Source: an uncultured Actinomycetota bacterium (GTDB taxonomy: Bacteria; Actinomycetota; Actinomycetes; JACCUZ01). Taken from it: a stretch of 64,000 bases of DNA. Position 1 is the first letter of the stretch. Each line of letters opens with the position of its first letter. The stretch spans positions 800,377-864,376 of the forward strand of contig CAVVAH010000008.1 in NCBI GenBank assembly GCA_963746175.1, written 5' to 3'. Both the position numbers and the translations under genes were made by a program. The notes beneath the pieces are model-generated. The model did not search any database, was not told where the DNA came from, and worked only from the letters and a program-made list of their open reading frames with translations. Shown here piece after piece: positions 38,613 to 64,000 of the stretch.

Positions 38613-38622
38613 CGCGGCGCCG

Positions 38623-39259: not shown

Positions 39260-42831
<3,572 letters not shown>

Positions 42832-48824: not shown

Positions 48825-49256
48825 ATGGGACGCAGAGTTGGCTATGCCCCGGGCGTCTACGACCTGTTCCACGTCGGGCACCTCAACATCCTGCGCGAGG
48901 CGCGCAAGGCGTGCGACTTCCTCGTCGCGGGCGTGGTCTCCGACGAGATGGCGGTCCGGGCCAAGGGCCGGCCGCCGGTCATCCCGCTGCACGAGCGCCT
49001 CGAGATCGTCCAGAGCATCACCTACGTGGACCAGGCCTACGCGGAGACGGTGCCCGACAAGCTGACGGTCTGGGAGGAGCTCCGCTTCGACGTGATCTTC
49101 AAGGGGGACGACTGGCGCGGCACCGAGAAGGGCGACAAGCTCGAGCGCGACTTCGCCAGCGTGGGCGTCGAGGTCGTCTACTTCGCCTACACCGTGGAGA
49201 CATCGAGCGCGAAGCTTCGCGACGTCCTTGACGTACTGCTCGAGCCGGCCTCGTGA
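48825..49256 (+). CDS. tagD: glycerol-3-phosphate cytidylyltransferase (CDP-glycerol synthesis)
   Basis: GVYDLFHVGHLNIL (HxGH) and the RTEGISTS-like TEKGDKL region. 143 aa, the typical TagD size. Confidence 0.85.
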   Translation: MGRRVGYAPGVYDLFHVGHLNILREARKACDFLVAGVVSDEMAVRAKGRPPVIPLHERLEIVQSITYVDQAYAETVPDKLTVWEELRFDVIFKGDDWRGTEKGDKLERDFASVGVEVVYFAYTVETSSAKLRDVLDVLLEPAS

Positions 49257-49342: not shown

Positions 49343-51000
49343 GTGGCTGACGTCGACCGGACCGTCGCCAGCAGCGTCACGATCTCGCAGTTCGTGGCCG
49401 TGCTCCGTCAGAGGTGGCACGTCATCGCGGCGATCGTGGCACTGTGCCTGCTTGCCGCCGGGGGCTTGCTCTCCTCCACTCCCCCGACCTACAGCGCTCG
49501 CGCCGTGGTACGGGTGACCCCGCTGACCGGCACGGCCGACAAGGACATCAGCACCATCACCGAGTCCAGGATCGCCACCTCGACCTCGGTCGCCCGGCGG
49601 GTCCGCACGCTGCTCAAGACCGACCGGACACCCGCGCAGCTCGTGTCGCACGTCGCCGTCAGCTCGCCGCTCGACAGCCAGGTGCTGGCGTTCGAGTACT
49701 CCGCCAGCTCCGCGCGCAAGGCCGCGGCCGGGGCCAACGCGTTCGCGGAGGCCTACCTGGCCTACCGCCGTGACACCAAGCAGGGCGAGCTGGACAAGCA
49801 GGACGCCCGGATCTCCCAGCAGATCGGCGAGGCAGCGGTCTGCTCACGGAGCTCGACCAGAAGCTGCGCGCGGCGGGCCTCGACGCGGACCAGCGGGCCG
49901 CAGACGGAGACGAGCGCACCGCCGCGCAGCTGCAGCTGCGCAACCTGCGTGCCGAGCAGTCCAGCCTGCGGTCCTTGACGCTGACCCCCGGTCAGCTCGC
50001 CGGCCGGGCCCTGGAGCCCACCGGTCCCGACTCACCGCGTCCGGTCATCTATCTCGCGGGCGGGCTGTTGTTCGGCTTCCTGCTGGGGTCGGTCGCGGCC
50101 GTCGCCCTGGATCGCCGCGATGACGGGATCCACGGTGTCGACGACCTCGAGCGCAGCGCAGGCGTGCCGGTCCTCGCAACCCTGCAGGGCGACTCGTTCC
50201 GCCGCGGATCCGCGACCCGAGGCTTCGCGGCCGTCGACGACGTCTACGGGACCGAGGCAGACGCGTTCCGGACCCTGGCTGCGAAGCTCAGGGGACCAGC
50301 AACGGGACGCGGTGCCCGGAGCATCGTGCTGGTGTGCCCTGGCGGCCGCAACGCCCGTCTTGCGCCGGCGAACCTCGCCGTGACGTTGGCCCGGCAGGGT
50401 CTCGACGTGGCGCTGATCGCCGCCGATGGGGCCATGGCCCGGACGACCGAACTGCTCGCGGCGCTGGCCAGGGCGGGGGCCGAGTCCGAGCTCCGCCACA
50501 GGGACGGCTCGCGGCGCGTTCCCGCCGTCGACCGGGTGCACCTGCTGTCCCTGGGCGACGAGCTCCTGCTGGACGCGACGCTGCGCGATCCCGATGCCCT
50601 CGGGCTCGACGCCGTCATGGAGAAGGCCGACATCATGGTCGTCGACGCGGTCAACCTGCAGCTGCCGTCCAGCACGTTGACGTTGGGACGGTTGGCGGAC
50701 GCAGCCCTGGTGCTCGGCGAGGAGCGGAAGAGCCGGCACACCGACGTCCGCAGAGCCGTGCGTGATCTCGCACAGGTGGGCACGCCCGTGGTGGGCGCGA
50801 CCTACGTCCGTCGTCGCCGCCGGTTTCCGGTCCGCTGGTCCGTCCGCCGCCCGAAGCCGGTGAGCCAGCCCACGCACGCCGCAGCAAGGCCCAGACCCGC
50901 ACTCGTCCGCACGCCCAAGGCTCCGGTGGCGCGCGCCCTCCGGCCCGGGCCCGACGAGCCGGACGACGACTCGCAGACGCACCAGACCGCCAGCCGCTGA
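49343..51000 (+). CDS. polysaccharide co-polymerase (Wzz/PCP-like) with a C-terminal BY-kinase-like ATPase domain carrying a degenerate Walker A; apparent frameshift near 49843
   Basis: N-terminal TM plus the Wzz region (SARAVVRVTPL). The coiled-coil LLTELDQKLRAAGLD continues in another frame. The second TM (VIYLAGGLLFGFLLG), then SIVLVCPGGRNARLAPANLA where the GKS/T is expected. Confidence 0.6.
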
Positions 51001-51010
51001 CGGTCGTTGC

Positions 51011-52315
51011 TCACGCCCGGTTGGCGACGGGGGCGCGCTGCGGCTCGCGCACAGTCGCGGGTGTCTCCGTATCCTCGACGCCCCGCATCGCCACTCCCGC
51101 GGCAGCCATGGCGACCGCGAGCTGCATGCCGTCGTATCCGTAGAAGAACACCGTCAGCAGTACGACGACGAGCGTGACATGGACGAACAGGCTGGCCTGT
51201 GTCGGCAGTGCGCGGGTGCACCACGCCGCCACGATGAACCAGGCCAGGAAGAAGAACAGCGCAGGGAAGCCGTAGCTGAACATCACGTTCCAGACCTGGC
51301 CCTGGGTGCCGATGGAGATGTCCAACGTCTCGGAGGGCTTCGGGGAGCCGTTGCCGAAGACGGGGGATGCCACGGCACCGTCGTACGCCTCGCGATAGAT
51401 CGTCTGGCGCCCCACGTTGGTCTGGCTGTAGTGCAGACGTTCGGACAGCGAGGACGTCACTCCGGTCGCCACGGCGATGACCACGCCCGACAAGGCGGAG
51501 ATGAGGATCGCCACGAGCGGCACCAGCCGTCCCCGCAGAGCGAGCCGGATCGAGGCGTACGCGAGGCCGAACCCGACGGCGAGGAACATGCCACGGTTCA
51601 ACGTGGCGAATGCCGGGACGGTCGCAGCGGCCAGCGTTCCGATCAGCAGCAACCGCACGCGGCCGCGTCCGACCATGCTGACGGTGGCGAGGACGAGGGG
51701 CACGAGCAGCGCGACGTTGCAGCCCCAGCTGTTCGTGTACGGGAACGGCGCGCTGGGACGGTAGAACGTGCGGGGTGAACCGTAGGGCTGCTGGACCTCG
51801 GCGAAGGTGGGGTTCACGAGCGCGTGGACGTACTCGTTCTGCGCGATCGCGGCAGGCAGGACCTGGGCGACGGGGGTCGACAAGGTCACCCGCGGCAGGA
51901 GGAGACCGAGGTACCCACCGATGACGACGAACCCGAAGAAGGCGGCCAGACCCAGCAGGACGCGCCTGGTCGGGAGTGACCTCTGCGTGCTGTTGTAGAT
52001 GTAGAGGAAGACCAGCGTCGCGCCGGCGTACGTGCTCAGCCGTACGGCGAAGCCGATCAGACGCAGTGAGCCCTGGACCTCCACGGCGGCGAAGCAGGCC
52101 CAGAGGACGAACAGCAGCCACAGCACGAATCCTCGTGGCATCCGGACGTTCCGGCGGACGCACAGCAGCACGGCCATGGGGACGGCGGTCAACGCCAGGG
52201 CGAAGCCGCCCAGGCCGAGCACCCACCAGACGGGGTAGCCGACGAACAGGACGTAGAACGGCCACGCCGGGAGGTCCGGTCCGGTCCCCGCCTCCGCTGA
52301 CCGGGTCGTCCTCAC
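51011..52315 (-). CDS. O-antigen ligase/polymerase-like (Wzy/WaaL family) membrane protein
   Basis: 434 aa, about 11 TM helices with a large periplasmic loop. GC content noticeably lower than the flanks. Confidence 0.6.
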   Translation of the reverse strand: MRTTRSAEAGTGPDLPAWPFYVLFVGYPVWWVLGLGGFALALTAVPMAVLLCVRRNVRMPRGFVLWLLFVLWACFAAVEVQGSLRLIGFAVRLSTYAGATLVFLYIYNSTQRSLPTRRVLLGLAAFFGFVVIGGYLGLLLPRVTLSTPVAQVLPAAIAQNEYVHALVNPTFAEVQQPYGSPRTFYRPSAPFPYTNSWGCNVALLVPLVLATVSMVGRGRVRLLLIGTLAAATVPAFATLNRGMFLAVGFGLAYASIRLALRGRLVPLVAILISALSGVVIAVATGVTSSLSERLHYSQTNVGRQTIYREAYDGAVASPVFGNGSPKPSETLDISIGTQGQVWNVMFSYGFPALFFFLAWFIVAAWCTRALPTQASLFVHVTLVVVLLTVFFYGYDGMQLAVAMAAAGVAMRGVEDTETPATVREPQRAPVANRA

Positions 52316-52316
52316 C

Positions 52317-53279
52317 TCAGAAGCCTCGCCCGACGCGCCGTCCGGCTGCGATCACCCTGTCGGCACTCATCAGGCCACTCGCCACGAGCAGTGCCGCGTA
52401 GCTGTGCCGAACACGCCTCGACCTGCGCAGCGACCGACCGGCATAACGAACCGCTCGCCGCCGTCGGCCCATGGCCGCGTTCGCGAACGCGATCTGGCCT
52501 TCTATCCGGGCCAGCCCACGCGGCTGACGCGAGAACTCGGGAACCCGAGCGAGCAGGTAGGTCAGGGCCTCGTCGATCATCGTCCAGCGACTGACGAAGA
52601 ACGACGAGTCGTGCCAGTAGATGCGGGTCAACGGCTCCTGCACGCAGAGGATCGGTCCGGTGCGGGCGGCCCGAAGCAACCACTCGTAGTCCTCGGCGTA
52701 ACCGCCCGGGAGGTCCTCGTCCACCAGACCCACCGGCCCGAGCAGGCCGGCCTTGCGGGCCATGAACGAGGAGGAGTTCGCCTCGATGTGGCGGCTCCGC
52801 AGCAGGTCGTCGAACGACAGCTCCGCGTGGTCGGCCGGCCGTTCGAGATCGCGGCCTCGATGATTGATCAGGATTCCGGTTCCGCAGGCGCTGGCGTCCG
52901 GGCGGCTCCGGAGCAGCTCGACCTGCGCCGAGACCTTTCCCGGGAGCCACTCGTCGTCGTCGTCACACCCGCAGATGAGCTCGCCGGCTGCTTGCAGGTA
53001 GCCGGTGTTGCGCGTGCCTGCCAGACCGGGCGACCGGGAGTTCGTCACGACCCTCAGCGTCCGGTGGGCCGACTCTGCCACGTCGGGTCGGACCGGCTCG
53101 GTCCGGTCGAAGACCACGATGCACTCGATGTGTCCGGGATAGTCCTGACCGAGGATCGACGTCACCGTGCGGCGGAGCAGCTCCGGCCGGTCGCGCGTCG
53201 GGACGACGGCGGTCACCTGCGGCCACTCGGACACGTCGGCCCGCGCAGGCAGCGCCGTGGGGTCGACCTCCAAGTCCAT
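52317..53279 (-). CDS. family 2 glycosyltransferase
   Basis: VVPTRDRPELL and the DxD motif CDDDDEW. Confidence 0.75.
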   Translation of the reverse strand: MDLEVDPTALPARADVSEWPQVTAVVPTRDRPELLRRTVTSILGQDYPGHIECIVVFDRTEPVRPDVAESAHRTLRVVTNSRSPGLAGTRNTGYLQAAGELICGCDDDDEWLPGKVSAQVELLRSRPDASACGTGILINHRGRDLERPADHAELSFDDLLRSRHIEANSSSFMARKAGLLGPVGLVDEDLPGGYAEDYEWLLRAARTGPILCVQEPLTRIYWHDSSFFVSRWTMIDEALTYLLARVPEFSRQPRGLARIEGQIAFANAAMGRRRRAVRYAGRSLRRSRRVRHSYAALLVASGLMSADRVIAAGRRVGRGF

Positions 53280-53392
53280 GCAAGGCTCCCCTGGCGCTGA
53301 GCGCCGGCTCTCGATCAGGTCCGCGGTGTCGCCCGTTCGCCATCCATGATGTCAGTACCGCCCGCTGAGTGGAGGCCGGATGACCAAGCTGG

Positions 53393-54342
53393 TCACCGCC
53401 ACTGGTACACGCGGACGTAGTCGATCGCATAGTCAGCAGGGAACGCGGTCGCCGCATCCGGTTCGCCCGGCCACGATCCACCGACTGCGAGGTTCAGGCG
53501 CAGGAAGAACGGTCGGTTGAACGCATCGTCGAGCCACGGTGTGCTGACCCTGCTCCGCATATACGTGAGCTTCCGGTCGACGTACCACCGGATGCTGCCT
53601 CGCTGCCACTTCACGACGTAGGTGTGGAAGCCGTCCGACGGAGAGCCGGACGGGAACTCCACGCTGGTCGACTCCTGAGGGAAGCTGCTGTCGTAGTCGA
53701 ACCAGATGGTGTGGTGAACCTGGTTCCACTCTGACGATGAGGCATCGCCACCTATCGCCTCGAGAGCGTCCAGCTCCCCCGCACCGCCGTCCGTCGGTCG
53801 AAGCCAGAACGCCGGCCAGAGGCCCTTCGACGTGGCGCGTTGCGTCGGCAAGCGTGCCCGGATCTCGAAGCGCCCGTAGGTCCAGGCAGCCTTGCCCTTC
53901 GTGGAGATCATGGCGGAGCTGTACTCGCGCCCCTGCGGGAACCGAGGATCCTGTGAGCCGCACGGGAGCGGGACACTCTCGCGCTGGGCTCGCAGGGACA
54001 GGACACCGTCCCGCAGAGCGACGTTCTCGGGCCGGTCCATCAGGCAGGCGAGCTCGCCGTTGCCCTCTCCGAAGGTGGACCTGTCCTCGACCAGCCACTT
54101 GCGCGGCGCGAGGGCTCGGCCGGAGAACTCGTCGTGCCACACCAGCTTCCATCCGGGGACGTGCTGCGGGCCGGCGGAAAAGGCACCCGTGGACAGCAGG
54201 ACGGCACCGATGGCGGTGACGACGACGAGCACGCCCGCAACCGCCGCAGCGCCGGGCGACAGCCCCGATGATCCGACGAGTCGACTGCGGTAGCCCCCCA
54301 CACCCTCACGGTAGGCCACCGCGACGAGGCCCGAGCGGACAT
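53393..54342 (-). CDS. GH16 family glycoside hydrolase (beta-1,3-glucanase/laminarinase-like), membrane-anchored
   Basis: Catalytic GELDALE (ExDxxE). Signal-anchor AAAVAGVLVVVTAIGAVLL. Start uncertain: the ATG at 54342 is in a neighbouring frame across a gggggg run, and an in-frame GTG lies near 54313. Confidence 0.7.
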
Positions 54343-54366
54343 CGCTCCACTCGGGCCTCGGTCGGG

Positions 54367-55989
54367 CTATCGCTGGTAGACGCGGACCCAGTCGACCTGG
54401 TAGTCCGCCGGGAACTGGGTCGACGAGGTCGGGGTTCCTGGCCACGACCCGCCGACCTGCATGTTCAGCCTGATGTTGAAGTTCCGGCCGAACGACTTGT
54501 CGATCCACGGGATGTCGCTGCGGCTCCGGGTGTAGGTGACCGTGTCGTCGACCAGGAACCGGATGACACCCGGCTCCCACTCCACGGCATAGGTGTGGAA
54601 CTTCTCCGACATCGTGTCGCCACCCGCGAAGGTGACCCCGTGCGCCTGCCTCGGGTAGGTGTTGTTGTAGTCCGCCCACAACGTCTGACTCACCGAGTTG
54701 TAGTTCCGCTCCCCCGCACCGGAACCGATCGCCTCCATGATGTCGATCTCGCCGTCACCACCGTCGTCGGGACGCAACCAGAACGCAGGCCACAGACCCT
54801 TGGACGTGTCAGCCTGCGTCGGCAGCTTCGCCCGCATCTCGAACCGCCCGTACGTGCGAGACATCTTGCCGATGGTGTCCAGGTAACCGGAGGTCCAGCT
54901 GCTGCTGTAGCCACCGCAGGTGTACTGCTCACGCTGCGCGACGATGTGCAGGACGCCGCCGCTGACCGCCACGTTCTGCGGCCGGCTCGTCAAGCAGGAC
55001 AGCTCGTTGGAGTTGTGGTCCCCGTTACGGACCCGCCACTTCGAACCGTCCACCGCGGAACCGTTGAACTCGTCCGACCAGGCCAACCGCCAGTTCGCCG
55101 GAGCTGGCGTCGTCGGAGCCGGCGGCGGCGGCGACGTGCTCGGGGCCGACGTGGTCGGTGCCGGTGCCGGCGCAGGCGTGGTCGGTGCCGACGTGGTCGG
55201 TGCCGGTGCCGGCGCAGGCGTGGTCGGTGCCGACGTGGTCGGTGCCGGTGCCGGTGCTGGCGAGGTCGCGCTCGGCGCCGACGAGGTCTTGCTCGGTGCC
55301 GGTGCCGGGGGGGTCGTCGTGACCGGTGCCGGCGCGTGGGTCTGTGCCGGCGCCGGCGCCGGTGCAGGTGTCGGTTTCGACGTGGTGGTGCTCGGTACGG
55401 GCGCCGACGTGGCCGTCCACAGCGTCACGTCGTCGATGTCCAGCGACGCCGACGATGGAAGCTGCCACGCGAGAGCATTCAGGTCGAGAGTCGCTCCGTC
55501 GCTCGCGGCCACATAGCTGAGGTTGACCTGCTGCCACCCCGTGGTCCTCAACCACACGCTCGCAACCTTCTGGCCGAGAAGGGTGGAACCGCGGTACTCC
55601 ATGACGCGCAGTGCAGCCGTGGTCCCCGGTGCCGTCGTGCGCAGCCATGCCGATGCGCTGTACACCACTCCTCGCTTGGTCTGCGACACCGTGTTGGCCG
55701 AATCGTTCAGCACGGATGTCAGGGGACCGGCCGACGTGTTCGTCACGTGACCCGCGAACGACCCACTGTGCCCCGCCGAACGTGTCAGGGTCGCGCCTGC
55801 CTTGGTCACCCAGCCTGTCGTGCTCGACTCGAAGGTCGGGTTCACGACGAGGTTCTCCTGGGCCGCCGAGGCCGAGAGGGCGAAGAAAGCGACGACGAGG
55901 GAGGCGGCGGAGACGATGGCGACTGGCGGGCCCAAAGTCTTTCCGGCCCTTTTCGCTGGGTGGGGGCGAGGGATCCGGTGACGGGACAT
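54367..55989 (-). CDS. secreted GH16 beta-glucanase with an N-terminal CBM-like domain and Pro/Thr-rich linker
   Basis: Signal peptide. PAPAPTTSAPTT x3 linker. Catalytic GEIDIMEAIG. The C-terminal about 265 aa are nearly identical to the next gene. Confidence 0.8.
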   Translation of the reverse strand: MSRHRIPRPHPAKRAGKTLGPPVAIVSAASLVVAFFALSASAAQENLVVNPTFESSTTGWVTKAGATLTRSAGHSGSFAGHVTNTSAGPLTSVLNDSANTVSQTKRGVVYSASAWLRTTAPGTTAALRVMEYRGSTLLGQKVASVWLRTTGWQQVNLSYVAASDGATLDLNALAWQLPSSASLDIDDVTLWTATSAPVPSTTTSKPTPAPAPAPAQTHAPAPVTTTPPAPAPSKTSSAPSATSPAPAPAPTTSAPTTPAPAPAPTTSAPTTPAPAPAPTTSAPSTSPPPPAPTTPAPANWRLAWSDEFNGSAVDGSKWRVRNGDHNSNELSCLTSRPQNVAVSGGVLHIVAQREQYTCGGYSSSWTSGYLDTIGKMSRTYGRFEMRAKLPTQADTSKGLWPAFWLRPDDGGDGEIDIMEAIGSGAGERNYNSVSQTLWADYNNTYPRQAHGVTFAGGDTMSEKFHTYAVEWEPGVIRFLVDDTVTYTRSRSDIPWIDKSFGRNFNIRLNMQVGGSWPGTPTSSTQFPADYQVDWVRVYQR

Positions 55990-56130
55990 GGGAAGCTCCG
56001 AGATGGTGGATGGAACAGCGATAGCGCGCGAACCTGACCGGGAGTACGACTGGTGGGTCGACCTTTCGTTGGGGGCGCTTGAGGTGGTTCACCCGTACGC
56101 AGGCGGCAAACGAGACGATCCTTACCAAGT

Positions 56131-56925
56131 CATGGCGCGGGCTATCGCTGGTAGACGCGGACCCAGTCGACCTGGTAGTCCGCCGGGAACTGGGTCGACG
56201 AGGTCGGGGTTCCTGGCCACGACCCGCCGACCTGCATGTTCAGCCTGATGTTGAAGTTCCGGCCGAACGACTTGTCGATCCACGGGATGTCGCTGCGGCT
56301 CCGGGTGTAGGTGACCGTGTCGTCGACCAGGAACCGGATGACACCCGGCTCCCACTCCACGGCATAGGTGTGGAACTTCTCCGACATCGTGTCGCCACCC
56401 GCGAAGGTGACCCCGTGCGCCTGCCTCGGGTAGGTGTTGTTGTAGTCCGCCCACAACGTCTGACTCACCGAGTTGTAGTTCCGCTCCCCCGCACCGGAAC
56501 CGATCGCCTCCATGATGTCGATCTCGCCGTCACCACCGTCGTCGGGACGCAACCAGAACGCAGGCCACAGACCCTTGGACGTGTCAGCCTGCGTCGGCAG
56601 CTTCGCCCGCATCTCGAACCGCCCGTACGTGCGAGACATCGTGCCGATGGTGTCCAGGTAACCGGAGGTCCAGCTGCTGCTGTAGCCACCGCAGGTGTAC
56701 TGCTCACGCTGCGCGACGATGTGCAGGACGCCGCCGCTGACCGCCACGTTCTGCGGCCGGCTCGTCAAGCAGGACAGCTCGTTGGAGTTGTGGTCCCCGT
56801 TACGGACCCGCCACTTCGAACCGTCCACCGCGGAACCGTTGAACTCGTCCGACCAGGCCAACCGCCAGTTCGCCGGAGCTGGCGTCGTCGGAGCCGGCGG
56901 CGGCGGCGACGTGCTCGGGGCCGGC
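56131..56925. repeat. about 0.8-kb near-perfect direct repeat (tandem duplication) of 54356-55150
   Basis: Identical runs, including cgggctatcgctggtagacgcggacccagtcgacctggtagtccgcc at both 54361 and 56136. Identical spurious antisense ORFs. Confidence 0.85.
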
Positions 56926-57596
56926 GGGGTCGTGGCCGCGGGCGTCGTCCCGGCCGCCTTCACCCGTGGAGACGCGCTGGGCGGCAGGCGCACGACGCGG
57001 ACCTTGTCGACATCGAACGCCTTGGCGACCGGCAGGGCCCAGGCGATGGCGACGACCCTGAGCGCGTCACCACGGGTCTTGGCCTTGTACCGCACCGTGA
57101 CCTTGTGCCACGCCCGGTCCGCGAGAACGACCCTGGACAGCACTCGACCGTCGACGCGATCGCCCGCTCGCTCCGTCAGGCGCAGCGCGACCTTCGTCCC
57201 GGGCGCCGTCGTGCGCAGCCGCGCGGTGGCCCGGTAGACCACGCCCTTGCGGGTCTCCGGCACGGCACCGGTGGGCGCGCGCAGCACAGCCTTCCGCGGC
57301 ACGGACAGGCTGTGGATCCGTGCAGCGCTCTCCGACTCGTATCCCGGTGCACTGCTCAGCCTCAGGCCCGGATCGACGTGCCATCCGCCGGTCGTGCGCT
57401 CGAAGTCTGCCCGCTGGACCAGAGCCGGCTGCGGCTGCGCGCCCGATGGGCTCTGCGCGCCCGATGCCATCTGGGCGCCCGCACCGCTCAGCGATCCGAC
57501 CATGGCGGCGATGGCGACGACAGGGACGGCGGCCGTTCTCCACCTGCCCCGAGGGCCGCGACGCTGCGCGCGTCCCGGTGCTCTGTGCTTCGGCAT
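56142..57596 (-). CDS. secreted GH16 beta-glucanase paralog with a different N-terminal beta-sandwich domain
   Basis: Same catalytic domain (GEIDIMEAIG) as 54367-55989, with one K/T difference. Distinct N-terminus. Confidence 0.8.
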   Translation of the reverse strand: MPKHRAPGRAQRRGPRGRWRTAAVPVVAIAAMVGSLSGAGAQMASGAQSPSGAQPQPALVQRADFERTTGGWHVDPGLRLSSAPGYESESAARIHSLSVPRKAVLRAPTGAVPETRKGVVYRATARLRTTAPGTKVALRLTERAGDRVDGRVLSRVVLADRAWHKVTVRYKAKTRGDALRVVAIAWALPVAKAFDVDKVRVVRLPPSASPRVKAAGTTPAATTPPAPSTSPPPPAPTTPAPANWRLAWSDEFNGSAVDGSKWRVRNGDHNSNELSCLTSRPQNVAVSGGVLHIVAQREQYTCGGYSSSWTSGYLDTIGTMSRTYGRFEMRAKLPTQADTSKGLWPAFWLRPDDGGDGEIDIMEAIGSGAGERNYNSVSQTLWADYNNTYPRQAHGVTFAGGDTMSEKFHTYAVEWEPGVIRFLVDDTVTYTRSRSDIPWIDKSFGRNFNIRLNMQVGGSWPGTPTSSTQFPADYQVDWVRVYQR

Positions 57597-58082
57597 CTGG
57601 CGTCGCCTTCCGTCTACCACGAGCTGCCCCGGGGGACACTGGTGCTCCTGGCGGTCGTCGGACCGAACGCTGCGGCGCTTGAGCGGCTTTGCCAAACCTG
57701 GGAGGAAGTGCGGCTCGTTCGTGGCGGGAGTGGCCGTGCGTAGGACGGCTCGGAGCGGTACACGTGATGTGGGCGAAGCATCTGTCTCCCGCGTCAGCGG
57801 GCTCCACCGGTGAGTGGAGCGAGGGGGGCGAGGAAGCACGCAAGACGTAGTGCCTCACGCACCGCCAGTCAGGTGGCTTCCCCCCACCGAGACGGCTCGG
57901 ACGAGCTGTTCCGTCATGCAGCCGGTGGTCATCCGTTAGGCCGCTTGACGACTCATGGATAGCCGATGTGGCAAGGAGATCGCAACTCGATCATCGATCG
58001 GCGCGCCACAGGCGTTCGCATGGTTACTGCGAGTACTTCTCTCGCTGCGCACACGTATCCGAGGCACCGTCCGGACGGCGAA

Positions 58083-58116
58083 CGGCCCGGCCGCAGCAGG
58101 GGCTGCGGCCGGGCCG
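58083..58116 (-). terminator. hairpin ggcccggccgcagc-agggg-ctgcggccgggcc downstream of the large secreted protein gene
   Basis: 14-bp perfect inverted repeat 20 nt after the stop at 58136. Confidence 0.5.
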
Positions 58117-58135
58117 GCGGAGCTGCCCGGCTCGC

Positions 58136-61100
58136 CTAGTTCGCCGCCTCGCGCAGGGCGAGATCATCGATGGCGACGGCCTTGGCGCCGACGTTCGTTC
58201 CCCCGCGCACCAACGACAGGTGCAGCTGCCCCGCCGCCGACACGCTGGAGTCGGTCTCCACCGCCGACCAGGTGGACGGCTCGACCTGGCCGTCCCGCCA
58301 GATGCGGAAGCTGATGGAGCTGCCGACGACGCGCAGCCGGAGCCACTGCTTGTCGGTCGTGACCGCCTGACCCCCAGTGACGTTGCGTAGGTTCGTCGTC
58401 ACACCGTTGACGTTCTTCTGGACGGTCACCGTGCCAGAGCTCGGGGAGAGCTGCAGGCCGTAGCCGTTGCGCGGCCGGTAGCCGTTCTGCCACCCGCCGG
58501 ATCCGCGGAGGTAGACGCTGAACGCCGCATTGGCAGTGAGCTGCTTCCAGCGGTACGAGAACAGGATCTCGGAGTCGGCGGTCGCGGCGACACCGGTCAG
58601 CTGTGCCCTGCTGTAGGCGTTCGTCACGTCCGTGAAGGACAGCTCTCCTTCGCCACCTTGGGTGAGCACGGCGCCACTGGCCGTGCCAGCAGACCAGCTG
58701 CTTCCCCAGGGAGAGCCGTCAGCCGCGGACCAGGTGTCTGCGAAGAGCAGCTGGGCACCGGCCGGCGTCGTCACATCAGCACCCGGGCTGTCACCACTCA
58801 CGTTCCCGGCGGCATCGACGGCGCGGACGGTCCAGTGATAGCTGGTGCCACCGGTCAGGCCCACATCGGTGAACGTCAGCCCGGAGACGGTGCCCGGCAG
58901 CGTCACGCCGTTGCGGACCACCTGGTAACCGACCACCCCGCGGTCGTCCGACGCTGCGGGCCACGTCAGGTCGGCCTGCGTCGCCGTCACATTGGTCGCC
59001 GTCAGTGCCGCGGGTGCGTTCGGCGCCGTCGTGTCCGAAGGCACGGTGACTGTGACGAGTGCGGAGCTCGCCTGGTTGCCGGAGGTGTCCGTGGCGACGA
59101 CCCGGAGCGTGTGCGAACCGACCGCGGTGGCGCTCCACGAGAACTCGTAGGGCAGGGCGTCATCCGTCGCGACCAGAGTGCCGTCGACCTCCAGGCCGAC
59201 CGAGGCGACCGCACGGTCGTCCGACGCCGTCGCCGTGACGGCGGTGTCGCCGTAGAGGACGGCCCCGTCCGACGGCGAGGTCAGAGAGGCGGTCGGCTTG
59301 GTGGTGTCAGGCGTGAGCACCGCGGCACCGACCGTTGTGGCGGAACGGTTCCCCTCGTCGTCGATCGCCCGGACGAAGTACGTCGCCGGCAGCGACGCCG
59401 TGGTGTCCGTGTAGTTCAAGGTCGTCGCAGACGTCGTCGCGATGACGCGGTCGTTGCGCAGGACCTCGTACGTCGGGCTGCCACTGGCGTCGGTCGAGGC
59501 GGACCAGGTCACCTTGATGCCTGTGTCGGTGGGGACCGCCTTCAGGTTCGTCGGGACGGTCGGGGCCGTGGTGTCACGCGGGCAGAACTTTCCGAACCCC
59601 CCGAGCCACTGGTAGGCGGTGCCCGTCCACGAGCCCTTCGTCATGTCGCCGCCGAACCAGAGGCAGCTGTTGGAGTCCTTCGTCAGCTCCCATGGTCCGA
59701 TGCCACCACGCGTGTCGAGCGAAGCCGGGTAGAAGTCCGGCAGGTACTCACCCGTGGTCGCGTCCCACGCGCCGATCAGGCTGATGGTGTTGACGTCCGT
59801 CGCCGACGGGATCGGGTCGTTGTAGCTCCGAGTGCCCGAGTAGTTCCAGTTGCCGCAGTGACAGGAACCGTAGACGACACCGTCGACGGCCCCGAGCGCC
59901 TGGAAGTCGCCCCCGGCCTTCGTCATGTTGGTGCTGACGAACGAGAAGTCGGCCCGGCGGTACTGGCTCATGATGTGCTCGGACCCGCCGACCCAGACGT
60001 AGTCGCCGACCTCCTTGATGGTCTGCTGGTAGGTCTTCGTCGTGCCCGTCGACGGCAGCCACGGCTGCAGTCCCGGCACGTTGGCGGCGCCCGCCGCCGT
60101 GCTGACCACACCGACCCGCGGTGAGGAGATGTGGTTGACCTCGTCGAAGTAGCCCGCGAAGTACACGCGGTCGCCACGGTCGCTGGCATCGACCTCGGCA
60201 GGCGTGCCGTCGAAGTTGGGCTTCCAGGTGCCGTCCGGCTTGCCGTCGCTCACGCGCAGCCGGGCGGCCCGGCCGATCGTCACCGGTCCCACACTCGGGA
60301 CACCGCCGGTGATCCGGTTGATGCGACCGACGACGTAGACGTAGCCGTCCTGGTAGTCCAGGGCCCTGACCTGGGGCGTGAGCCCTGTCGTGTTGACGTA
60401 GTCGACGCTGGCACGCCAACCCGGGTCGACCGCACCGGTCACCGGGTCGAGCGCGGCGAGGCCGGTGGTGCCCGGCTCACCGTTGACGCTGGTGAACTCG
60501 CCGGCGATGATCAACGTCCCCTGGGGTGTCGCCTGCAGGTCCCAGACCTCGCCGTTGACGACCGGCCTGAACGTGCTCAGCCACTCCCCCGTGTTCACGT
60601 CGAAGCCTGCGACGTAGGACTGGTGGATCTTCTCGGCGGGCGAGGGATTGGCTCCCTTCTGTACCCACTCGAAGGTGCCGCCCACGTACATGACATCGCC
60701 GACCTGGGCGAAGGACTCCACCTCGAGCGTCAGCTCACCCTTGTATCCCCCGACGATGCCTGTCACGCCCCACGGGGTCGTGTTGGACGTCTGGGACGAC
60801 ATCAGCGGGCGAAGCGTGCTCGCGGGAAGACCGGCGGCGGGGATGGTGGGGTAGGTCACCGAGGTGAGCTTCGGGCGGATGAAGACCTGCGAGAACGGCA
60901 GTGCCGACTTCTCGGCCGCGTACTGCCACAGGTAGTTGTTCGGGTCGTTGGCGCCGGAGATCTTGTTGCCGTAGGCGAAGCCCTGCTTGTAGTTGTGCGC
61001 CGCAGCGTCGTTGGTCGTCATCCGCAGCAGGTTCTGGTCACCGTTGACCGCCCACGACTGGGTGTTACCGCCGGAGTAGGTGGTCCCGTTGATGATCACG

Positions 61101-61646
61101 TTGGACATCAGCTCGCCGCCACCGATCGCCCAGGACCAGGTCGACCGGTTGGACATCTTCAGGCGCATCTCCTGCCACGCCGTACCGGTGGAGTTCGTGG
61201 CGCGGCGCACCCGGACGCCGTCAGGCAGGGCATCGACGCGGCCCCCGCCGAGCAGGCCCTGGACGGTCTGGGTCGGGTAGGTGGCCGGGGCGAAGGCAGC
61301 CGGCCCGGTGACCGTGGTGCGGAGTGCCGGTAGACCGCCCTGACCGGCCGGGCTCCACGTCCAGCCCTCCCTGCCGCGGCCGATGAGCACCCAGCCGCCG
61401 CCGTCGGTCGTCATGTCGCAGTAGAACTGACGCGGCGTGACGAGCTGCGGGGTCTGCAGCCAGTAGATCCCGTTGGCGCTCGACGGCTGGCTCTGCTTGA
61501 TCGCCCAGCACGACGGAGCCGCCGTGGCGGAGCTCACGCCGTCCGCCACCGACACCGCCGCCGTGGCGGGAGCGGGTGGCAGCGCGACCATGGTGGCGAT
61601 CAGCGTTGTGATGGTCGCGGCGAACCCCGCCCAACGGACCTGCTTC
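58136..61646 (-). CDS. large secreted multidomain protein: N-terminal fibrinogen-related domain, Ig-like/FN3 repeats, C-terminal concanavalin/LamG-like domain
   Basis: Signal peptide MKQVRWAGFAATITTLIATMVALPPAPATAA. FReD signature C..NGIYWLQTPQLVTPRQFYCDMTTDGGGWVLIGRG. FN3-like PNAPAALTATNVTATQADLTWPAASDDRGVVGYQVVRNG. The C-terminal about 200 aa are shared with the next protein. Confidence 0.75.
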
Positions 61647-61899
61647 ATCGAATTCCCCTTGTTGCGCATGGTGGGCGCCCCCCAGGGGCGGTGTTGAGAA
61701 GGCAACCTGACGCTGGTGCGATGGTGCGAGGTTGTCCCGGGTGTTGCCAGCCGGTCGGTGATGCTGCGTCCGCCGGCTGGCTGAATCGTTGACTCTCCGT
61801 ATCGGTCGGGTTCCGTGCTGTTCGTCTTGCCATTCCTCCCGTGGCCGTGACTCCCCTGGCGGGCCGGGACGACGGTGCTCGCCGTCCCGGCCCCCGTCC

Positions 61900-64000
61900 C
61901 TAGTTCAGGACCAGGTCGTCCAGCGCCACGAACTTGGCGCCGACGTTGCTCGCTGCCCGGTTGAGCGACAGGAACGTCTGCCCGTTGCCGGTCACGCTCG
62001 AGTCGGTCACCGTGGCCGCCCACGTGCCCGGCTCCGGGCTGCCGTCCAGCCAGGTACGGAACTGGATGGTCGAGCCCGTCGCCCGCAGCCGCAGCCAGTG
62101 CTTGGCGGTGCTGACTGTCTGCGCACCGGCAACGTTCTGGATGGTGGTGCGGGTCCCGGCGACGTTCTTCTCCAGCGTGATCGTCCCCGAGTTCGGCGTG
62201 ATCTGCAGGCCGTAGCCGTTGACCGGGCGGTAGCCGTTCTGCCAACCGCCGGAGCCTCGGACGTAGACGCTGAAGTACGAGCCCGCCGTCGTCGAGCTGA
62301 ACTGGTACGACGTCAGCAGGTCGGCGTCCGGACGAGCGGTCACCACGGTGAGCTGCGCCCGGGCGAACGCGCTGGCCACGTCGTTGAACGTGAGCCGGCC
62401 CTCGTTCGACTGGATGCTCGCGGCGCCGTTGGTGCCGCCCGTCGCCCAGGCCGCCGGCCACCCCGAACCGTTGGCTCCCGTCCACGTCTCCGTGTACAGC
62501 GAGCTGGACTCGGGGAGGGTCGTGATCCCGACCACGTTGCTGTCATCGCTGACGTTGCCGGCTGCGTCCACCGCGCGCACGGTGTACGAGTACGCCGTGC
62601 CCGGGGTGAGCCCGGTGTCGGTGAACGTCCGCACGCTCAGCGTGCCCGGCAGCACCGTCCCGTTCCGCACCACCCGGTAACCCGTGACACCACGGTCGTC
62701 CGTCGACGCGTTCCAGGCCAGGTCCACCGACGTCTTGGTGACGTTGCTGGCCGCGAGCCCGGTCGGTGCCGACGGGTCCTCCGTGTCCGGTGGGACGGTC
62801 ACGTGCACGACGGTCGACGAACCGGTGTTCCCGGCCGCGTCCTGAGCCACCGCCTGCAGCGTGTGGGCGCCTTCGTCCACGGCGTTCCAGCTGAAGCTGT
62901 ACGGCGCCGACGTGTCGTTGCCCACGGCACTGCCGTCCACGAGGAACTGGACCGCGGTCACGCCCCGGTTGTCGCTCGCCGTGGCCGTCACGTTCGTCGG
63001 CCCGAAGACGTTGCTGCCCTCGGACGGCGCCGTGATGCTGGCCGTCGGGTCCTCCGTGTCGGGACCGATCACGGTCACGTGCACCGCGTCGGACGTCCCG
63101 TCGTTGCCGGCTGCGTCGTGCGCGACCGTGCGCAGCGTGTAGTCACCTTCGGTGGCGTTCCAGGTGAAGGTGTACGGCGCCGTGCTGTCGGTGTCGACCG
63201 TCGAGCCGTCCACCTGCAGGTCGACCGAGGTCACGCCGACGTTGTCCGAGGCGTTCGCCTCGACGGAGGTGGCTCCGGCCTCGATGGTGTCACCCTCGAT
63301 CGGCGACGTGATCGCCGTGTCCGGCGCCAGGAGGTCCGGACCGCTACGACCGGAGGCGTGGTAGTGGTTGTCGACCTGGATGGCCGTCAGCGCGTTCGCG
63401 TAGATGGCGACCTCGTCGATCGTCCCGTTGAACCAGTCGCTGGACGGCCGGTCCGGCCAGAAGCCGAGGTTGTCGCCACCCACCCGCCAGTAGCCGCCGT
63501 AGCCCTGGTTCGTGGTGACGCCGTTCGAGTCGACCAGGGCGTCGTCCAGGTAGAGCTTCATCCCGGACGAGTCCTGCATCGCGACGACGTGGTGCCAGTT
63601 GCCGTCGTTCTGACCTGCTGCCGACCGCACGATGTCGAAGCTGCCGTTGTACACACCGAACTCGAGTCGGCCGTTGTCGGTCATCCAGACGTGCTTGTCG
63701 TAGGCGCCGCTGTTGCCGGTCTGGCTGTTGCCGAAGCCGATCAGCTTGCCGCCCTGGTTGGTGGTCGTCTTGAACCACAGCTCGGTCGAGAACGTCGAGG
63801 GTCCGCCGGTCGCGTTCGTGCTGGCGACGTTGCCCGTCGACCCGTTGAACGTCGCCGCGTTGCCGACGCCGCCGCTCAGCGCACCCGCCGCACCTTGCGT
63901 CACACCGCCGATGTACTGGCCGGTGTTGCCGCTGTCCGACGTGTCGGCAGCCGTCGTGCCGGACGTCTCGTCGAGGCGCCAGTAGGCGACCGGCGAGTCG
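61900..64000 (-). CDS. large secreted LamG/Ig-like/FN3 multidomain protein (paralog; N-terminus beyond the window)
   Basis: LamG-like LWFKTTTNQGGKLIGFGN...HHVVAMQD. Repeated Ig-like TAPYTFTWNA / SAPYSFSWNA modules. FN3. The same C-terminal domain as the 58136-61646 protein. No signal peptide at the first M, so the gene extends past 64000. Confidence 0.7.
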   Translation of the reverse strand, partial: DSPVAYWRLDETSGTTAADTSDSGNTGQYIGGVTQGAAGALSGGVGNAATFNGSTGNVASTNATGGPSTFSTELWFKTTTNQGGKLIGFGNSQTGNSGAYDKHVWMTDNGRLEFGVYNGSFDIVRSAAGQNDGNWHHVVAMQDSSGMKLYLDDALVDSNGVTTNQGYGGYWRVGGDNLGFWPDRPSSDWFNGTIDEVAIYANALTAIQVDNHYHASGRSGPDLLAPDTAITSPIEGDTIEAGATSVEANASDNVGVTSVDLQVDGSTVDTDSTAPYTFTWNATEGDYTLRTVAHDAAGNDGTSDAVHVTVIGPDTEDPTASITAPSEGSNVFGPTNVTATASDNRGVTAVQFLVDGSAVGNDTSAPYSFSWNAVDEGAHTLQAVAQDAAGNTGSSTVVHVTVPPDTEDPSAPTGLAASNVTKTSVDLAWNASTDDRGVTGYRVVRNGTVLPGTLSVRTFTDTGLTPGTAYSYTVRAVDAAGNVSDDSNVVGITTLPESSSLYTETWTGANGSGWPAAWATGGTNGAASIQSNEGRLTFNDVASAFARAQLTVVTARPDADLLTSYQFSSTTAGSYFSVYVRGSGGWQNGYRPVNGYGLQITPNSGTITLEKNVAGTRTTIQNVAGAQTVSTAKHWLRLRATGSTIQFRTWLDGSPEPGTWAATVTDSSVTGNGQTFLSLNRAASNVGAKFVALDDLVLN

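What the first reader, a model, noticed from the sequence alone, without database searches (positions are those of the whole stretch)
58136..64000. Fibrinogen-related domain in a giant secreted actinobacterial protein, paired with a LamG/Ig/FN3 paralog sharing a C-terminal lectin-like domain
The mature N-terminus of the 1170-aa protein carries a textbook FReD signature (Cys ... NGIYWLQTP ... FYCDMTTDGGGW(V)LIGRG). FReDs bind acetylated sugars in animal ficolins and tenascins and are rare in bacteria. It is fused to Ig-like and FN3 repeats and a roughly 200-aa C-terminal concanavalin-like domain that is duplicated in the adjacent 667+ aa protein, which instead carries a LamG domain. Together with three adjacent GH16 beta-1,3-glucanases, this suggests a secreted glycan-targeting arsenal, for example against fungal chitin and beta-glucan walls, or an envelope glycopolymer-binding S-layer-like system.
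Basis: partly seen in the sequence, partly recalled or inferred. Interest (0 to 1): 0.6.

Follow-up and report, generated by a model that had tools for sequence, protein, structure and literature searches.

The report
Bacterial fibrinogen-like propeller protein, glycopolymer cluster
A large secreted actinobacterial protein does begin with a divergent fibrinogen-like domain, but it belongs to a widespread, uncharacterised family that sits inside cell-surface polysaccharide gene clusters, so it most likely acts on the bacterium's own polymer, not on fungal walls.

Summary

The domain is divergent:
- Pfam Fibrinogen_C is sub-threshold.
- It has two cysteines, and no NCA..WWY..C-type motif is visible.

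The family is not rare: at least 466 loci in species-representative genomes, the best 80 almost all Actinomycetota.

In 38 of 50 loci with full flanks the gene adjoins Wzx/Wzy-type polysaccharide genes, with a median gap of 132 bp. In this organism A and paralogue B lie between Bac_transf/Alg13-14 and GH16 x3/GT2/Wzy_C.

My reading: A binds or processes the cluster's own glycopolymer. The antifungal-arsenal idea is not supported. No function has been tested. Moderately interesting.

The parts
58136..61648 (-). Protein A, 1170 aa. Order of parts: signal peptide, FReD-like domain, 7-blade propeller, fn3-like, Big_7, fn3, ConA-like module.
   Evidence: ORF and translation; AAGGGG Shine-Dalgarno sequence before the ATG at 61648; domain hits.
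61559..61648 (-). Sec-type signal peptide, aa 1-30, with A-T-A before the predicted cleavage site.
   Evidence: Read directly from the sequence. Homologues also begin with hydrophobic leaders.
60869..61531 (-). Divergent fibrinogen-related (FReD-like) domain, aa ~40-260. The GGGWT_bact motif module is aa 46-89 (window 61382-61513).
59564..60751 (-). Seven-blade beta-propeller of the DUF5122 type, aa ~300-695. H558, D581, Q583, H597 and W664 are invariant and D668 nearly so, all in blades 5-7.
   Evidence: Repeat motifs. DUF5122 hits in 34 of 46 and Rax2 in 25 of 46 homologues. Invariant columns in the 38-sequence alignment. Fused to the FReD-like domain in 78 of 80 loci.
59339..59545 (-). fn3-like beta-sandwich (Pfam RGI_lyase beta-sheet domain), aa 702-770. 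It is part of the family's conserved core.
   Evidence: 33.9 bits against a cutoff of 27.8. Conserved CPRDxTAP...YEVLR consensus.
59099..59296 (-). Big_7 bacterial Ig-like domain, aa 785-850.
   Evidence: 62.3 bits.
58802..59017 (-). Fibronectin type III domain, aa 878-949.
   Evidence: 32.6 bits against a cutoff of 25.
58139..58756 (-). C-terminal concanavalin-A-like jelly-roll module, aa ~965-1170. It has no GH16-type catalytic motif. Proposed to be a shared glycan-binding or retention module.
61900..64000 (-). Protein B, cut by the window end. The visible part holds Laminin_G_3, two Big_7, one fn3 and the ConA-like module (61903-62502). In the 98.8%-identical contig L081 its N-terminus is a signal peptide plus a DUF5122 propeller, with no FReD.
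56142..57839 (-). GH16 glycoside hydrolase 3. The ORF is taken from the earliest GTG, so the true start is probably further downstream.
   Evidence: Pfam Glyco_hydro_16 at 74.7 bits; EIDIME motif.
54367..55989 (-). GH16 glycoside hydrolase 2, with an N-terminal CBM_4_9 domain and a Pro/Thr-rich linker.
   Evidence: Pfam at 75.9 bits and CBM_4_9 at 26.3 bits.
53393..54679 (-). GH16 glycoside hydrolase 1. The 5' end of the ORF overlaps GH16-2, so the true start is probably near 54360.
   Evidence: Pfam at 70.9 bits; ELDALE motif.
52317..53279 (-). GT2 glycosyltransferase, a conserved neighbour of the family.
   Evidence: Pfam at 69.8 bits. Orthologues in 33-37 of 80 loci.
51011..52315 (-). Wzy_C-family multi-pass membrane protein (polymerase or ligase type), a conserved neighbour.
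   Evidence: 23 of 26 orthologues hit PF04932. Full-length orthologues in 41-43 of 80 loci.
49343..51000 (+). Wzz chain-length-determinant domain (49343-49978), followed by a degenerate tyrosine-kinase-like P-loop protein (49975-51000).
   Evidence: Pfam Wzz at 34.6 bits. Weak eps_fam/EpsG/MinD similarities.
48825..49256 (+). Small cytidylyl/adenylyl-transferase (TagD/RfaE-II-like).
   Evidence: TIGR00125 at 64.6 bits against a cutoff of 27.7.
47092..48684 (+). Wzx-type polysaccharide flippase (Polysacc_synt), a conserved neighbour.
   Evidence: Pfam at 33.9 bits. Orthologues in 37-40 of 80 loci.
46194..46934 (+). CDP-alcohol phosphatidyltransferase-family membrane protein. In other genomes this is the gene most often immediately next to the FReD-propeller gene.
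   Evidence: Pfam at 26.4 bits against a cutoff of 22. Orthologues in 23 loci. It is the nearest neighbour in 19 loci.

Best explanation
Protein A belongs to a widespread, experimentally uncharacterised actinobacterial family of secreted proteins. The invariant core of the family is a divergent fibrinogen-like domain fused to a seven-blade DUF5122-type beta-propeller and an fn3-like domain.

The family is an accessory of a Wzx/Wzy-dependent cell-surface glycopolymer pathway. I propose three steps:
1. After Sec export, the FReD-like and propeller head recognises the polymer made by the neighbouring genes. That polymer is probably anionic, carrying phospho-alcohol or sulfate groups.
2. The variable C-terminal tail holds the protein on the cell surface or matrix. 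Here the tail is Big_7, fn3 and a concanavalin-like module.
3. That module is shared with paralogue B and with a secreted metallophosphoesterase, so it acts as a common polymer-binding retention tag.

On this reading the protein organises or cross-links the polymer as a matrix lectin. This is comparable in logic to the lectin-plus-propeller matrix proteins RbmC/Bap1, encoded beside the Vibrio cholerae vps genes (comparison from my own knowledge). The adjacent GH16 enzymes would then trim the same polymer, as ExoK does for succinoglycan (also from my own knowledge).

**Shown:** domain identities, folds, fusion, family size and conserved gene neighbourhood.

**Inferred:** ligand identity, lack of catalysis, the retention role of the ConA-like module, and the role of the GH16 enzymes.
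For: **FReD-like head**
- Motif and fold relationship to FReDs.
- The head and propeller are contiguous in 73-78 of 80 loci.

**Conserved neighbourhood** (de novo ORF clustering of the 80 loci)
- Counts: Wzy_C 41, Wzx 37, GT2 33, sulfotransferase 23, CDP-OH_P_transf 23, Alg13-like 19, Bac_transf 18, the two Wzz clusters in 10 and 8 loci, Alg14 11.
- Of the 50 loci with full +/-8 kb flanks, 38 have at least one such gene and 33 have Wzy_C or Wzx.
- The nearest such gene is a median of 132 bp away and on the same strand in 44 of 52 loci.

**This organism**
- The 98.8%-identical contig L081 shows the order Bac_transf, Alg14, Alg13-like, Metallophos protein, B, A, GH16 x3, GT2, Wzy_C, all on one strand.
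- A and B are therefore flanked on both sides by biosynthesis genes.

**ConA-like module**
- It occurs in three consecutive secreted proteins with different heads, at 54-56% identity.
- Its best structural matches are L-type lectins and mycobacteriophage receptor-binding domains.
- It lacks a GH16 catalytic motif.

**Variable tails.** Other family members carry other binding modules: CWB2, LamG, a PL4 CBM-like domain, and Ig or fn3 repeats.

**GH16 similarity.** The best NCBIfam similarities of the GH16 enzymes are EglC and ExoK, both sub-threshold.
Against: - No binding or activity data exist for any family member. None was found in the literature searches.
- The propeller carries invariant His, Asp and Gln residues in blades 5-7. 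That pattern looks more like an active or metal site than a passive scaffold.
- 12 of the 50 full-flank loci show no polysaccharide gene within 8 kb.
- Strong hairpins and 250-300 bp gaps after B and A suggest separate transcription units rather than one operon.
- The ConA-like tail is found in only 4 of 80 loci, so the retention-tag idea applies only to this lineage.
Confidence: 0.42

Rival explanations
1. The protein has the same genomic role as in the best explanation, but it is an enzyme. The propeller would be a catalytic domain that cleaves, modifies or transfers the nascent glycopolymer outside the cell, for example as a lyase, hydrolase, transglycosylase or wall ligase. The FReD-like domain would act as its substrate-binding module.
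For: - H558, D581, Q583, H597 and W664 are invariant and D668 nearly so. All lie at equivalent turn positions of blades 5-7, whereas blades 1-4 conserve only Gly and Phe.
- The head-plus-propeller unit is rigidly conserved while the tails vary. That is the usual pattern for a catalytic core carrying accessory binding modules.
- Propeller-fold polysaccharide lyases exist (my own knowledge).
- The neighbouring secreted proteins of the same cluster are enzymes: GH16 and Metallophos.
Against: - Neither a sequence profile nor a single sequence finds any solved enzyme.
- No CAZy-type Pfam family covers the propeller.
Confidence: 0.3
2. One reading: a secreted arsenal aimed at foreign glycans, in which the FReD binds acetylated sugars such as chitin and the GH16 enzymes degrade fungal beta-1,3-glucan.
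For: - Animal FReDs bind acetyl groups (my own knowledge).
- The GH16 enzymes carry the EIDIME motif with the extra Met residue, as in laminarinase-type GH16 (my own knowledge).
- GH16-2 has a CBM_4_9 domain.
- All of these proteins are secreted.
Against: - No NCA..WWY..C-type motif is visible, and the domain has only two Cys. From my own knowledge, canonical FReDs have a second disulfide and a calcium site in the P subdomain that forms the acetyl site.
- GH16 accompanies the family in only 13 of 80 loci, whereas Wzx/Wzy genes do so in about two thirds.
- A and B lie inside a biosynthetic cluster.
- No chitinase or chitin-binding module is present in the locus.
Confidence: 0.1
3. The protein is an adhesin for host or environmental surfaces, meaning animal or plant glycans or matrix. 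It would be encoded next to capsule genes only because both belong to a surface-structure island.
For: - The architecture is modular, with Ig and fn3 repeats.
- Tandem triplicate copies occur in the human oral genus Rothia.
- A CWB2 wall anchor occurs in one homologue.
Against: - Most carriers are soil or water Actinomycetota and Acidimicrobiia with no host.
- The tight 132-bp, same-strand adjacency to biosynthesis genes across orders argues for a functional link rather than mere co-location in an island.
Confidence: 0.1
4. The protein is itself the substrate. It would be a surface (S-layer-like) glycoprotein that receives the glycan from the Wzy_C-family protein acting as an O-oligosaccharyltransferase.
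For: - Wzy_C-family proteins include protein O-oligosaccharyltransferases (my own knowledge).
- The protein is large, secreted and encoded next to Wzy_C.
Against: - There are no S-layer domains and no obvious Ser/Thr/Tyr-rich acceptor repeats in A.
- A Wzz and tyrosine-kinase-like pair points to polymerisation and export of a free polymer.
Confidence: 0.05

Closest known systems
NCBIfam NF040941 (GGGWT_bact), the "fibrinogen-like YCDxxxxGGGW domain-containing protein"
   Same: Protein A matches the model at 74.8 bits against a cutoff of 30, over aa 46-89. Many homologues already carry this NCBI name.
   Different: The model covers only a 46-residue module, and that module also occurs in unrelated downstream contexts. 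It does not describe the ~220-aa domain, the obligatory propeller fusion or the link to polysaccharide clusters. No function is attached to the name.
Animal fibrinogen-related domains (Pfam PF00147): ficolins, angiopoietins, FIBCD1, tenascins, fibrinogen beta/gamma
   Same: - The Cys...YCDM disulfide pair and the GGGW strand are present.
- The closing strand reads VFIRP. Its likeness to the FReD MKIRP-type closing strand rests on my own recollection of that motif.
   Different: - The Pfam score is below the gathering cutoff and covers 39 of 221 positions.
- Identity is only 12-19% and TM-scores are 0.38-0.50.
- No second disulfide is possible, and no NCA..WWY..C-type motif is visible on reading the sequence.
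- The domain sits at the N-terminus of the protein rather than the C-terminus, and is fused to a propeller rather than to collagen or coiled-coil stalks.
Intelectins / X-type lectins (human intelectin-1, XEEL, lamprey serum lectin)
   Same: - They are the best sequence matches among solved structures: E 9e-11 to 1e-9 with the family profile, against 4e-6 for the best classical FReD.
- As in intelectins, only the first ~45 residues keep FReD-like sequence.
   Different: There is no detectable similarity beyond aa ~95. Whether any counterpart of the intelectin calcium and diol-binding site exists could not be tested. This family is bacterial and fused to a propeller.
Vibrio cholerae matrix proteins RbmC/Bap1, encoded between the vps clusters (comparison from my own knowledge)
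   Same: They are secreted proteins that combine a beta-propeller with lectin domains. They are encoded beside exopolysaccharide genes and act by binding the polymer and surfaces.
   Different: No sequence relationship was tested or is expected. The lectin type (beta-prism), propeller type and phylum all differ. This is an analogy of logic only.
ExoK/EglC-type GH16 glycanases encoded in exopolysaccharide clusters
   Same: These are the best NCBIfam similarities of the three GH16 genes. They are GH16 enzymes sitting within a polysaccharide cluster.
   Different: Scores are far below the equivalog cutoffs (97 against 700, and 24 against 350). Substrate is unknown.

Membership tests
Fibrinogen-related domain (Pfam PF00147 Fibrinogen_C) | Score at or above the Pfam gathering threshold across the ~220-residue profile | tested here: not met
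   19.2 bits against a cutoff of 22; only profile positions 14-52 of 221 are matched. 25 of 46 homologues give weak hits, best E 1.7e-4.
Fibrinogen-related domain (Pfam PF00147 Fibrinogen_C) | A-subdomain disulfide (Cys...YCDM) followed by the GGGW(T/V) central strand | tested here: met
   C47 and C77 are invariant, and GGGW at aa 83-86 is invariant or nearly so, in the 46-sequence alignment. NF040941 scores 74.8 bits.
Fibrinogen-related domain (Pfam PF00147 Fibrinogen_C) | Overall FReD fold (A and B subdomains) | tested here: met
Fibrinogen-related domain (Pfam PF00147 Fibrinogen_C) | P subdomain with a second disulfide, an NCA..(G)WWY..C motif and a calcium site forming the acetyl-binding pocket (feature list from my own knowledge) | tested here: not met
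   The domain has only two Cys, at 47 and 77. No NCA..WWY..C-type motif is visible on reading the sequence, although one is visible in P0094, a Fibrinogen_C/COLFI-annotated hit. The Pfam alignment stops at profile position 52.
Fibrinogen-related domain (Pfam PF00147 Fibrinogen_C) | Binding of acetylated or other glycan ligands | not testable with these tools
   Needs glycan arrays or binding assays.
NCBIfam NF040941 GGGWT_bact | Score above the curated cutoff of 30 bits | tested here: met
   74.8 bits, E 4e-21, aa 46-89, full model length 1-46.
Intelectin / X-type lectin | Homology over the whole ~270-residue lectin domain, including the calcium and exocyclic-diol site | tested here: not met
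DUF5122-type beta-propeller (Pfam PF17164) | Repeated blade motif recognised by the Pfam repeat model | tested here: inconclusive
   A itself gives only E 0.42. However, 34 of 46 homologues hit DUF5122 (best E 9.4e-9) and 25 of 46 hit the Rax2 propeller. Seven hYhGGxF-type repeats are visible at 41-72-aa spacing. No model of this part was made.
Concanavalin A-like lectin/glucanase fold (C-terminal module) | Jelly-roll beta-sandwich superimposable on L-type lectins and GH16 | tested here: met
Glycoside hydrolase family 16 (as a possible identity of the C-terminal module) | Catalytic ExDx(x)E motif | tested here: not met
   No E.D..?E pattern anywhere in A. There is no Pfam or NCBIfam GH16 hit on the module and no PDB sequence hit.
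Glycoside hydrolase family 16 (three neighbouring genes) | Pfam PF00722 above cutoff, plus the catalytic motif | tested here: met
   70.9, 75.9 and 74.7 bits against a cutoff of 22. ELDALE and EIDIME motifs are present. Beta-1,3 specificity was not tested.
Wzx/Wzy-dependent polysaccharide gene cluster (context) | Co-located initiating transferase, glycosyltransferases, Wzx flippase, Wzy-family polymerase and Wzz/PCP | tested here: met
   Window: Polysacc_synt, Wzz, GT2, and Wzy_C through its orthologues. Bac_transf, Alg14 and Alg13-like lie just beyond the window in the 98.8%-identical contig.

The most novel reading that the evidence does not exclude
The FReD-like plus propeller unit is a previously unrecognised extracellular catalytic or assembly component of Wzx/Wzy-dependent anionic glycopolymer pathways across Actinomycetota, including human-associated Rothia. 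The invariant His/Asp/Gln/His cluster on propeller blades 5-7 would be its active site. The bacterial domain would also represent an ancient prokaryotic lineage of the fibrinogen/intelectin lectin fold, rather than a recent import from animals.
Probability: 0.15. Interest if true: 0.8.

Novelty: new variant of a known kind. Interest (0 to 1): 0.5.

Why it matters
Fibrinogen-related and intelectin lectins are usually treated as animal innate-immunity and matrix modules. This finding shows a divergent relative fixed at the head of a propeller protein family throughout Actinomycetota. That family is tied to the genes that build surface polysaccharides.

If the link is functional, it identifies a missing extracellular player, either a binder or an enzyme, in actinobacterial capsule, exopolysaccharide or wall-glycopolymer assembly. 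It would also provide a shared lectin-like retention module for surface display, and a bacterial reference point for the origin of the FReD fold.

The case also corrects a tempting misreading. GH16 enzymes plus a "chitin-type" lectin do not here add up to an antifungal arsenal.

Tried and rejected
- **Exact-sequence look-ups of A.** Both the 1170-aa and 1177-aa forms found nothing. The organism's locus was instead reached through the partial homologue P0003.
- **Sequence searches against the PDB.** The propeller (single sequence and 38-sequence profile) and the C-terminal module gave no meaningful hits. The Wzy_C profile also found no solved relative.
- **AlphaFold-database Foldseek search.** The library was not available, so the taxonomic spread of the fold outside bacteria could not be examined.
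- **Structure predictions.** Both jobs went to the FReD-like and C-terminal domains, so the propeller was not modelled.
- **Literature searches.** Searches for bacterial FReDs, "YCDxxxxGGGW", DUF5122 or delta-60 repeats, and fibrinogen with Wzy and Actinobacteria found nothing on this family. The Doolittle 2012 FReD evolution paper is not held.
- **C-terminal module as a fourth GH16.** Rejected, because there is no catalytic motif and no GH16 profile hit.
- **Recent horizontal transfer from animals.**
  - The family spans two classes of Actinomycetota at 35-69% identity.
  - GC across 52-64 kb (0.68-0.69) is only slightly below the rest of the window.
  - No phylogeny was made.
- **Consensus scan.** No sigma-70 promoter-like site or T-tract terminator was found on the coding (-) strand between 53.2 and 62.1 kb.

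Full report
**What is in the sequence**

The window is high-GC DNA (0.68-0.76).

A begins with a Sec-type signal peptide (aa 1-30, ending A-T-A). It then contains the quoted signature C47...NGIYWLQTP...FYC77DMTTDGGGWVLIGRG.

Upstream on the same strand, protein B (stop at 61900) runs off the window end. 699 aa of B are visible.

Pfam places these domains:
- In A: an fn3-like RGI_lyase beta-sheet domain (aa 702-770), Big_7 (785-850) and fn3 (878-949).
- In B: Laminin_G_3, two Big_7 and one fn3.

A and B are 54% identical over 424 aa.

The three genes downstream of A are GH16 hydrolases with ELDALE or EIDIME catalytic motifs.

**Is the N-terminal domain a FReD?**

The motif is not a chance match:
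- NCBIfam NF040941, the "fibrinogen-like YCDxxxxGGGW domain", scores 74.8 bits against a cutoff of 30.
- A phmmer search of the PDB returns only intelectins and FReDs.

I collected homologues of aa 30-290 (95 clusters) and aligned 37 of them. The AlphaFold2 model from that alignment has mean pLDDT 89.7.
- Foldseek independently ranks 50 FReD chains first with probability 1.0, but TM-scores are only 0.38-0.50.

The relationship is therefore real but remote:
- Pfam Fibrinogen_C scores 19.2 bits, below its cutoff of 22, and covers profile positions 14-52 only.
- The domain has just two cysteines, the A-subdomain pair.
- No NCA..WWY..C-type motif is visible on reading the sequence. Such a motif is visible in P0094, a Fibrinogen_C/COLFI-annotated hit.
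- The last strand reads VFIRP (family consensus PFxxVxxRP). From my own knowledge this resembles the FReD closing strand.

With the family profile, the best solved relatives by sequence are X-type lectins (XEEL 9e-11, intelectin-1 4e-10). The best classical FReD scores 4e-6. In every case the alignment covers only about 45 residues.

I therefore call this a divergent FReD-fold domain. It keeps the A/B core but has no visible canonical ligand-site motif. This situation is reminiscent of intelectins.

Residues ~300-695 contain seven hYhGGxF-type repeats spaced 41-72 aa apart.
- A itself gives only faint Pfam hits to propeller models (Rax2, DUF5122).
- Among 46 full-length homologues, 34 hit DUF5122 and 25 hit the Rax2 propeller.
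- In a 38-sequence alignment, blades 1-4 conserve only structural Gly and Phe.
- Blades 5-7 carry invariant H558 (GGSEH), D581 and Q583 (GGDFQ), H597 (CHC) and W664, plus nearly invariant D668 (LWxGGD).
- No solved structure is detectable by sequence or profile.

**How common is the family?**

- The best 80 are almost all Actinomycetota, and one is labelled an Acidobacteria MAG.
- Genera include Jatrophihabitans (66-69% identity, the closest), Planobispora, Amycolatopsis, Actinomadura, Microbacterium, Agromyces, Arthrobacter, Glutamicibacter, Rothia (including R. mucilaginosa), Nocardioides, Ilumatobacter and Aquihabitans.

A full HMMER pass over 1.84 billion representatives at 50% identity gives 191 hits at E 1e-30 or better and 489 at 1e-10 or better. 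Nearly all full-length matches start within the first ~120 residues of proteins that, when complete, are mostly 750-2500 aa long; a few lie internally.

"Rare in bacteria" is therefore wrong for this type. NCBI already names the motif module, and many homologues carry that name. The same 45-residue module also occurs in unrelated contexts.

**Gene neighbourhood, the main new result**

I first ran tblastn of the window's proteins against the 80 loci. I then clustered all ORFs of those loci de novo and assigned Pfam families to the clusters.

The FReD-like domain is followed directly by the propeller in 78 of 80 loci. In 73 of them at least 380 of 410 propeller residues are covered.

Families found beside the gene within +/-8 kb:

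| Neighbouring gene family | Loci (of 80) |
|---|---|
| Wzy_C-family membrane protein | 41 |
| Wzx-type flippase | 37 |
| GT2 | 33 |
| Sulfotransferase | 23 |
| CDP-alcohol phosphatidyltransferase | 23 |
| Alg13-like | 19 |
| Bac_transf initiating transferase | 18 |
| GH16 | 13 |
| Alg14-like | 11 |
| Wzz, cluster a | 10 |
| Wzz, cluster b | 8 |
| Small cytidylyltransferase | 8 |

- The window's Wzy_C copy (51011-52315) has no Pfam hit itself, but 23 of 26 orthologues match PF04932.
- Of the 50 loci with full flanks, 38 (76%) have at least one such gene, and 33 (66%) have Wzy_C or Wzx.
- The nearest such gene is a median of 132 bp away, under 500 bp in 39 of 52 loci, and on the same strand in 44 of 52.
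- That nearest gene is most often the CDP-alcohol transferase (19 loci) or the sulfotransferase (17 loci).
- A genome holds only a handful of Wzy_C genes, so chance co-location within 16 kb would be on the order of 1%. This figure is my inference, not a computed control.

**This organism's locus**

The window holds these genes:
- CDP-OH_P_transf: 46194-46934 (+)
- Wzx: 47092-48684 (+)
- Cytidylyltransferase: 48825-49256 (+)
- Wzz and a degenerate tyrosine-kinase-like protein: 49343-51000 (+)
- Wzy_C: 51011-52315 (-)
- GT2: 52317-53279 (-)
- GH16 x3: 53393-57839 (-)
- A and B

A metagenome contig, L081, is 98.8% identical to window 50878-64000 and extends 7.6 kb further. Beyond B, on the same strand, it shows:
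- Bac_transf, Alg14 and an Alg13-like gene.
- A 1058-aa secreted protein with a Metallophos domain, fn3 repeats and two copies of the same terminal module, each 56% identical to A's.

B's true N-terminus is a signal peptide followed directly by a DUF5122 propeller, which is distantly related to A's (25% identity, E 2e-12). B has no FReD.

A and B therefore sit in the middle of a polysaccharide cluster, with biosynthesis genes on both sides.

**The C-terminal module**

Sixty clusters of homologues, wherever a preceding domain is annotated, show the module following fn3. The module models at pLDDT 95.5.
- It is a concanavalin-A-like jelly roll.
- It has no ExDx(x)E motif and no profile hit.
- Among the 80 loci it occurs in only 4, all close relatives.
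- In this organism it ends three consecutive secreted proteins with different heads.
- Other family members end in CWB2, LamG, a PL4 CBM-like domain, or Ig and fn3 repeats.

A common C-terminal module on different secreted heads is how non-covalent surface retention usually looks. SLH, CWB2 and choline-binding repeats are examples from my own knowledge. I therefore propose that it binds the cluster's polymer or the cell wall.

**Most likely mechanism and its rivals**

*Shown:* secretion signal, domain folds, the conserved fusion, and the conserved link to Wzx/Wzy clusters.

*Inferred (confidence 0.42):*
- The head recognises the bacterium's own glycopolymer. That polymer is probably anionic, given the adjacent phospho-alcohol and sulfate transferases.
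- The tail retains the protein on the surface or matrix.
- The GH16 enzymes trim the polymer.

*Main rival (0.30):* the same role, but catalytic. The invariant His/Asp/Gln/His set on three adjacent blades looks like an active or metal site.

- The canonical acetyl-site motif is not visible.
- GH16 is an occasional companion of the family, not a constant one.
- The genes are embedded in a biosynthetic cluster.

*A host adhesin (0.10) and a glycoprotein substrate or S-layer (0.05)* remain possible.

Against a single operon: A and B are each followed by a perfect hairpin with a stem of at least 15 bp (-57 and -42 kcal/mol, z -3.3) and by a 250-300 bp gap.

**Novelty and verdict**

The motif module is already curated, so the bare observation is known at annotation level. 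In the held literature I found no description of three things:
- The full divergent FReD-fold domain.
- Its obligatory propeller partner.
- Its conserved placement in Wzx/Wzy clusters across Actinomycetota.

I rate it a new variant of a known kind, interest 0.5.

Noticed in passing
window 54363-55157 and 56138-56932: The catalytic halves of GH16-2 and GH16-3 are a tandem duplication, 795 bp at 99.6% identity with 3 mismatches. Their N-terminal halves differ: GH16-2 has a CBM_4_9 domain and a long Pro/Thr/Ala linker. This indicates recent duplication or gene conversion.
   Followed up: partly
window 58050-58140 (-) and 61820-61905 (-): Perfect GC-rich hairpins with stems of at least 15 bp and no U-tract begin within ~20 nt of the stop codons of A and B. 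Energies are -57.4 and -42.2 kcal/mol, z about -3.3 against shuffles. They are likely actinobacterial-style terminators or mRNA-stabilising elements. The consensus terminator scan misses them.
   Followed up: partly
L081:1936-5112 (just beyond the window end, in a 98.8%-identical contig): A 1058-aa secreted protein has a Metallophos (calcineurin-like phosphoesterase) head, fn3 repeats and two copies of the same ConA-like module. Residues ~360-655 and ~760-1055 appear identical on reading the translation. This could be a real internal duplication or an assembly artefact of that contig.
   Followed up: partly
P0179 (4522 aa), P0190 (3103 aa), P0228 (4035 aa), P0270 (2041 aa): Giant proteins in the representative library carry 6-15 tandem matches to only the first ~60-70 residues, the GGGW motif module. 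This is a different, repeat-type use of the module.
   Followed up: no
P0092, P0093, P0090: Other prokaryotic or viral-looking proteins carry the YCDMTTDGGGW module, followed by sequences that look unrelated to this family on reading. The 45-residue module is therefore shared by several distinct families.
   Followed up: no
L074 and L079 (Rothia spp.); also L046, L058 and several two-copy loci: The FReD-propeller gene occurs as two or three tandem paralogues in some genomes, three in a row in Rothia sp. and Rothia mucilaginosa. Several MAGs carry it at three separate loci.
   Followed up: no
window ~43900-44300 (+): A phosphoenolpyruvate-carboxylase-like reading frame appears split. PEPC-like N-terminal sequence lies at the end of the long + strand ORF 38575-44997, then degenerates. 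The PEPC-like C-terminal part is in another frame (44273-46066). This is either a frameshift, a sequencing error or a pseudogene. The identification rests on reading the translation only.
   Followed up: no
window 52000-64000: GC content is 0.68-0.69 across the GH16/A/B part of the cluster, against 0.70-0.76 over most of the rest of the window. The dip is mild and shared by the whole surface-polysaccharide region.
   Followed up: no
loci L001-L080: The gene immediately next to the FReD-propeller gene is most often a CDP-alcohol phosphatidyltransferase-family protein (19 loci) or a sulfotransferase (17 loci). This hints that the associated polymer carries phospho-alcohol or sulfate substituents.
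   Followed up: partly
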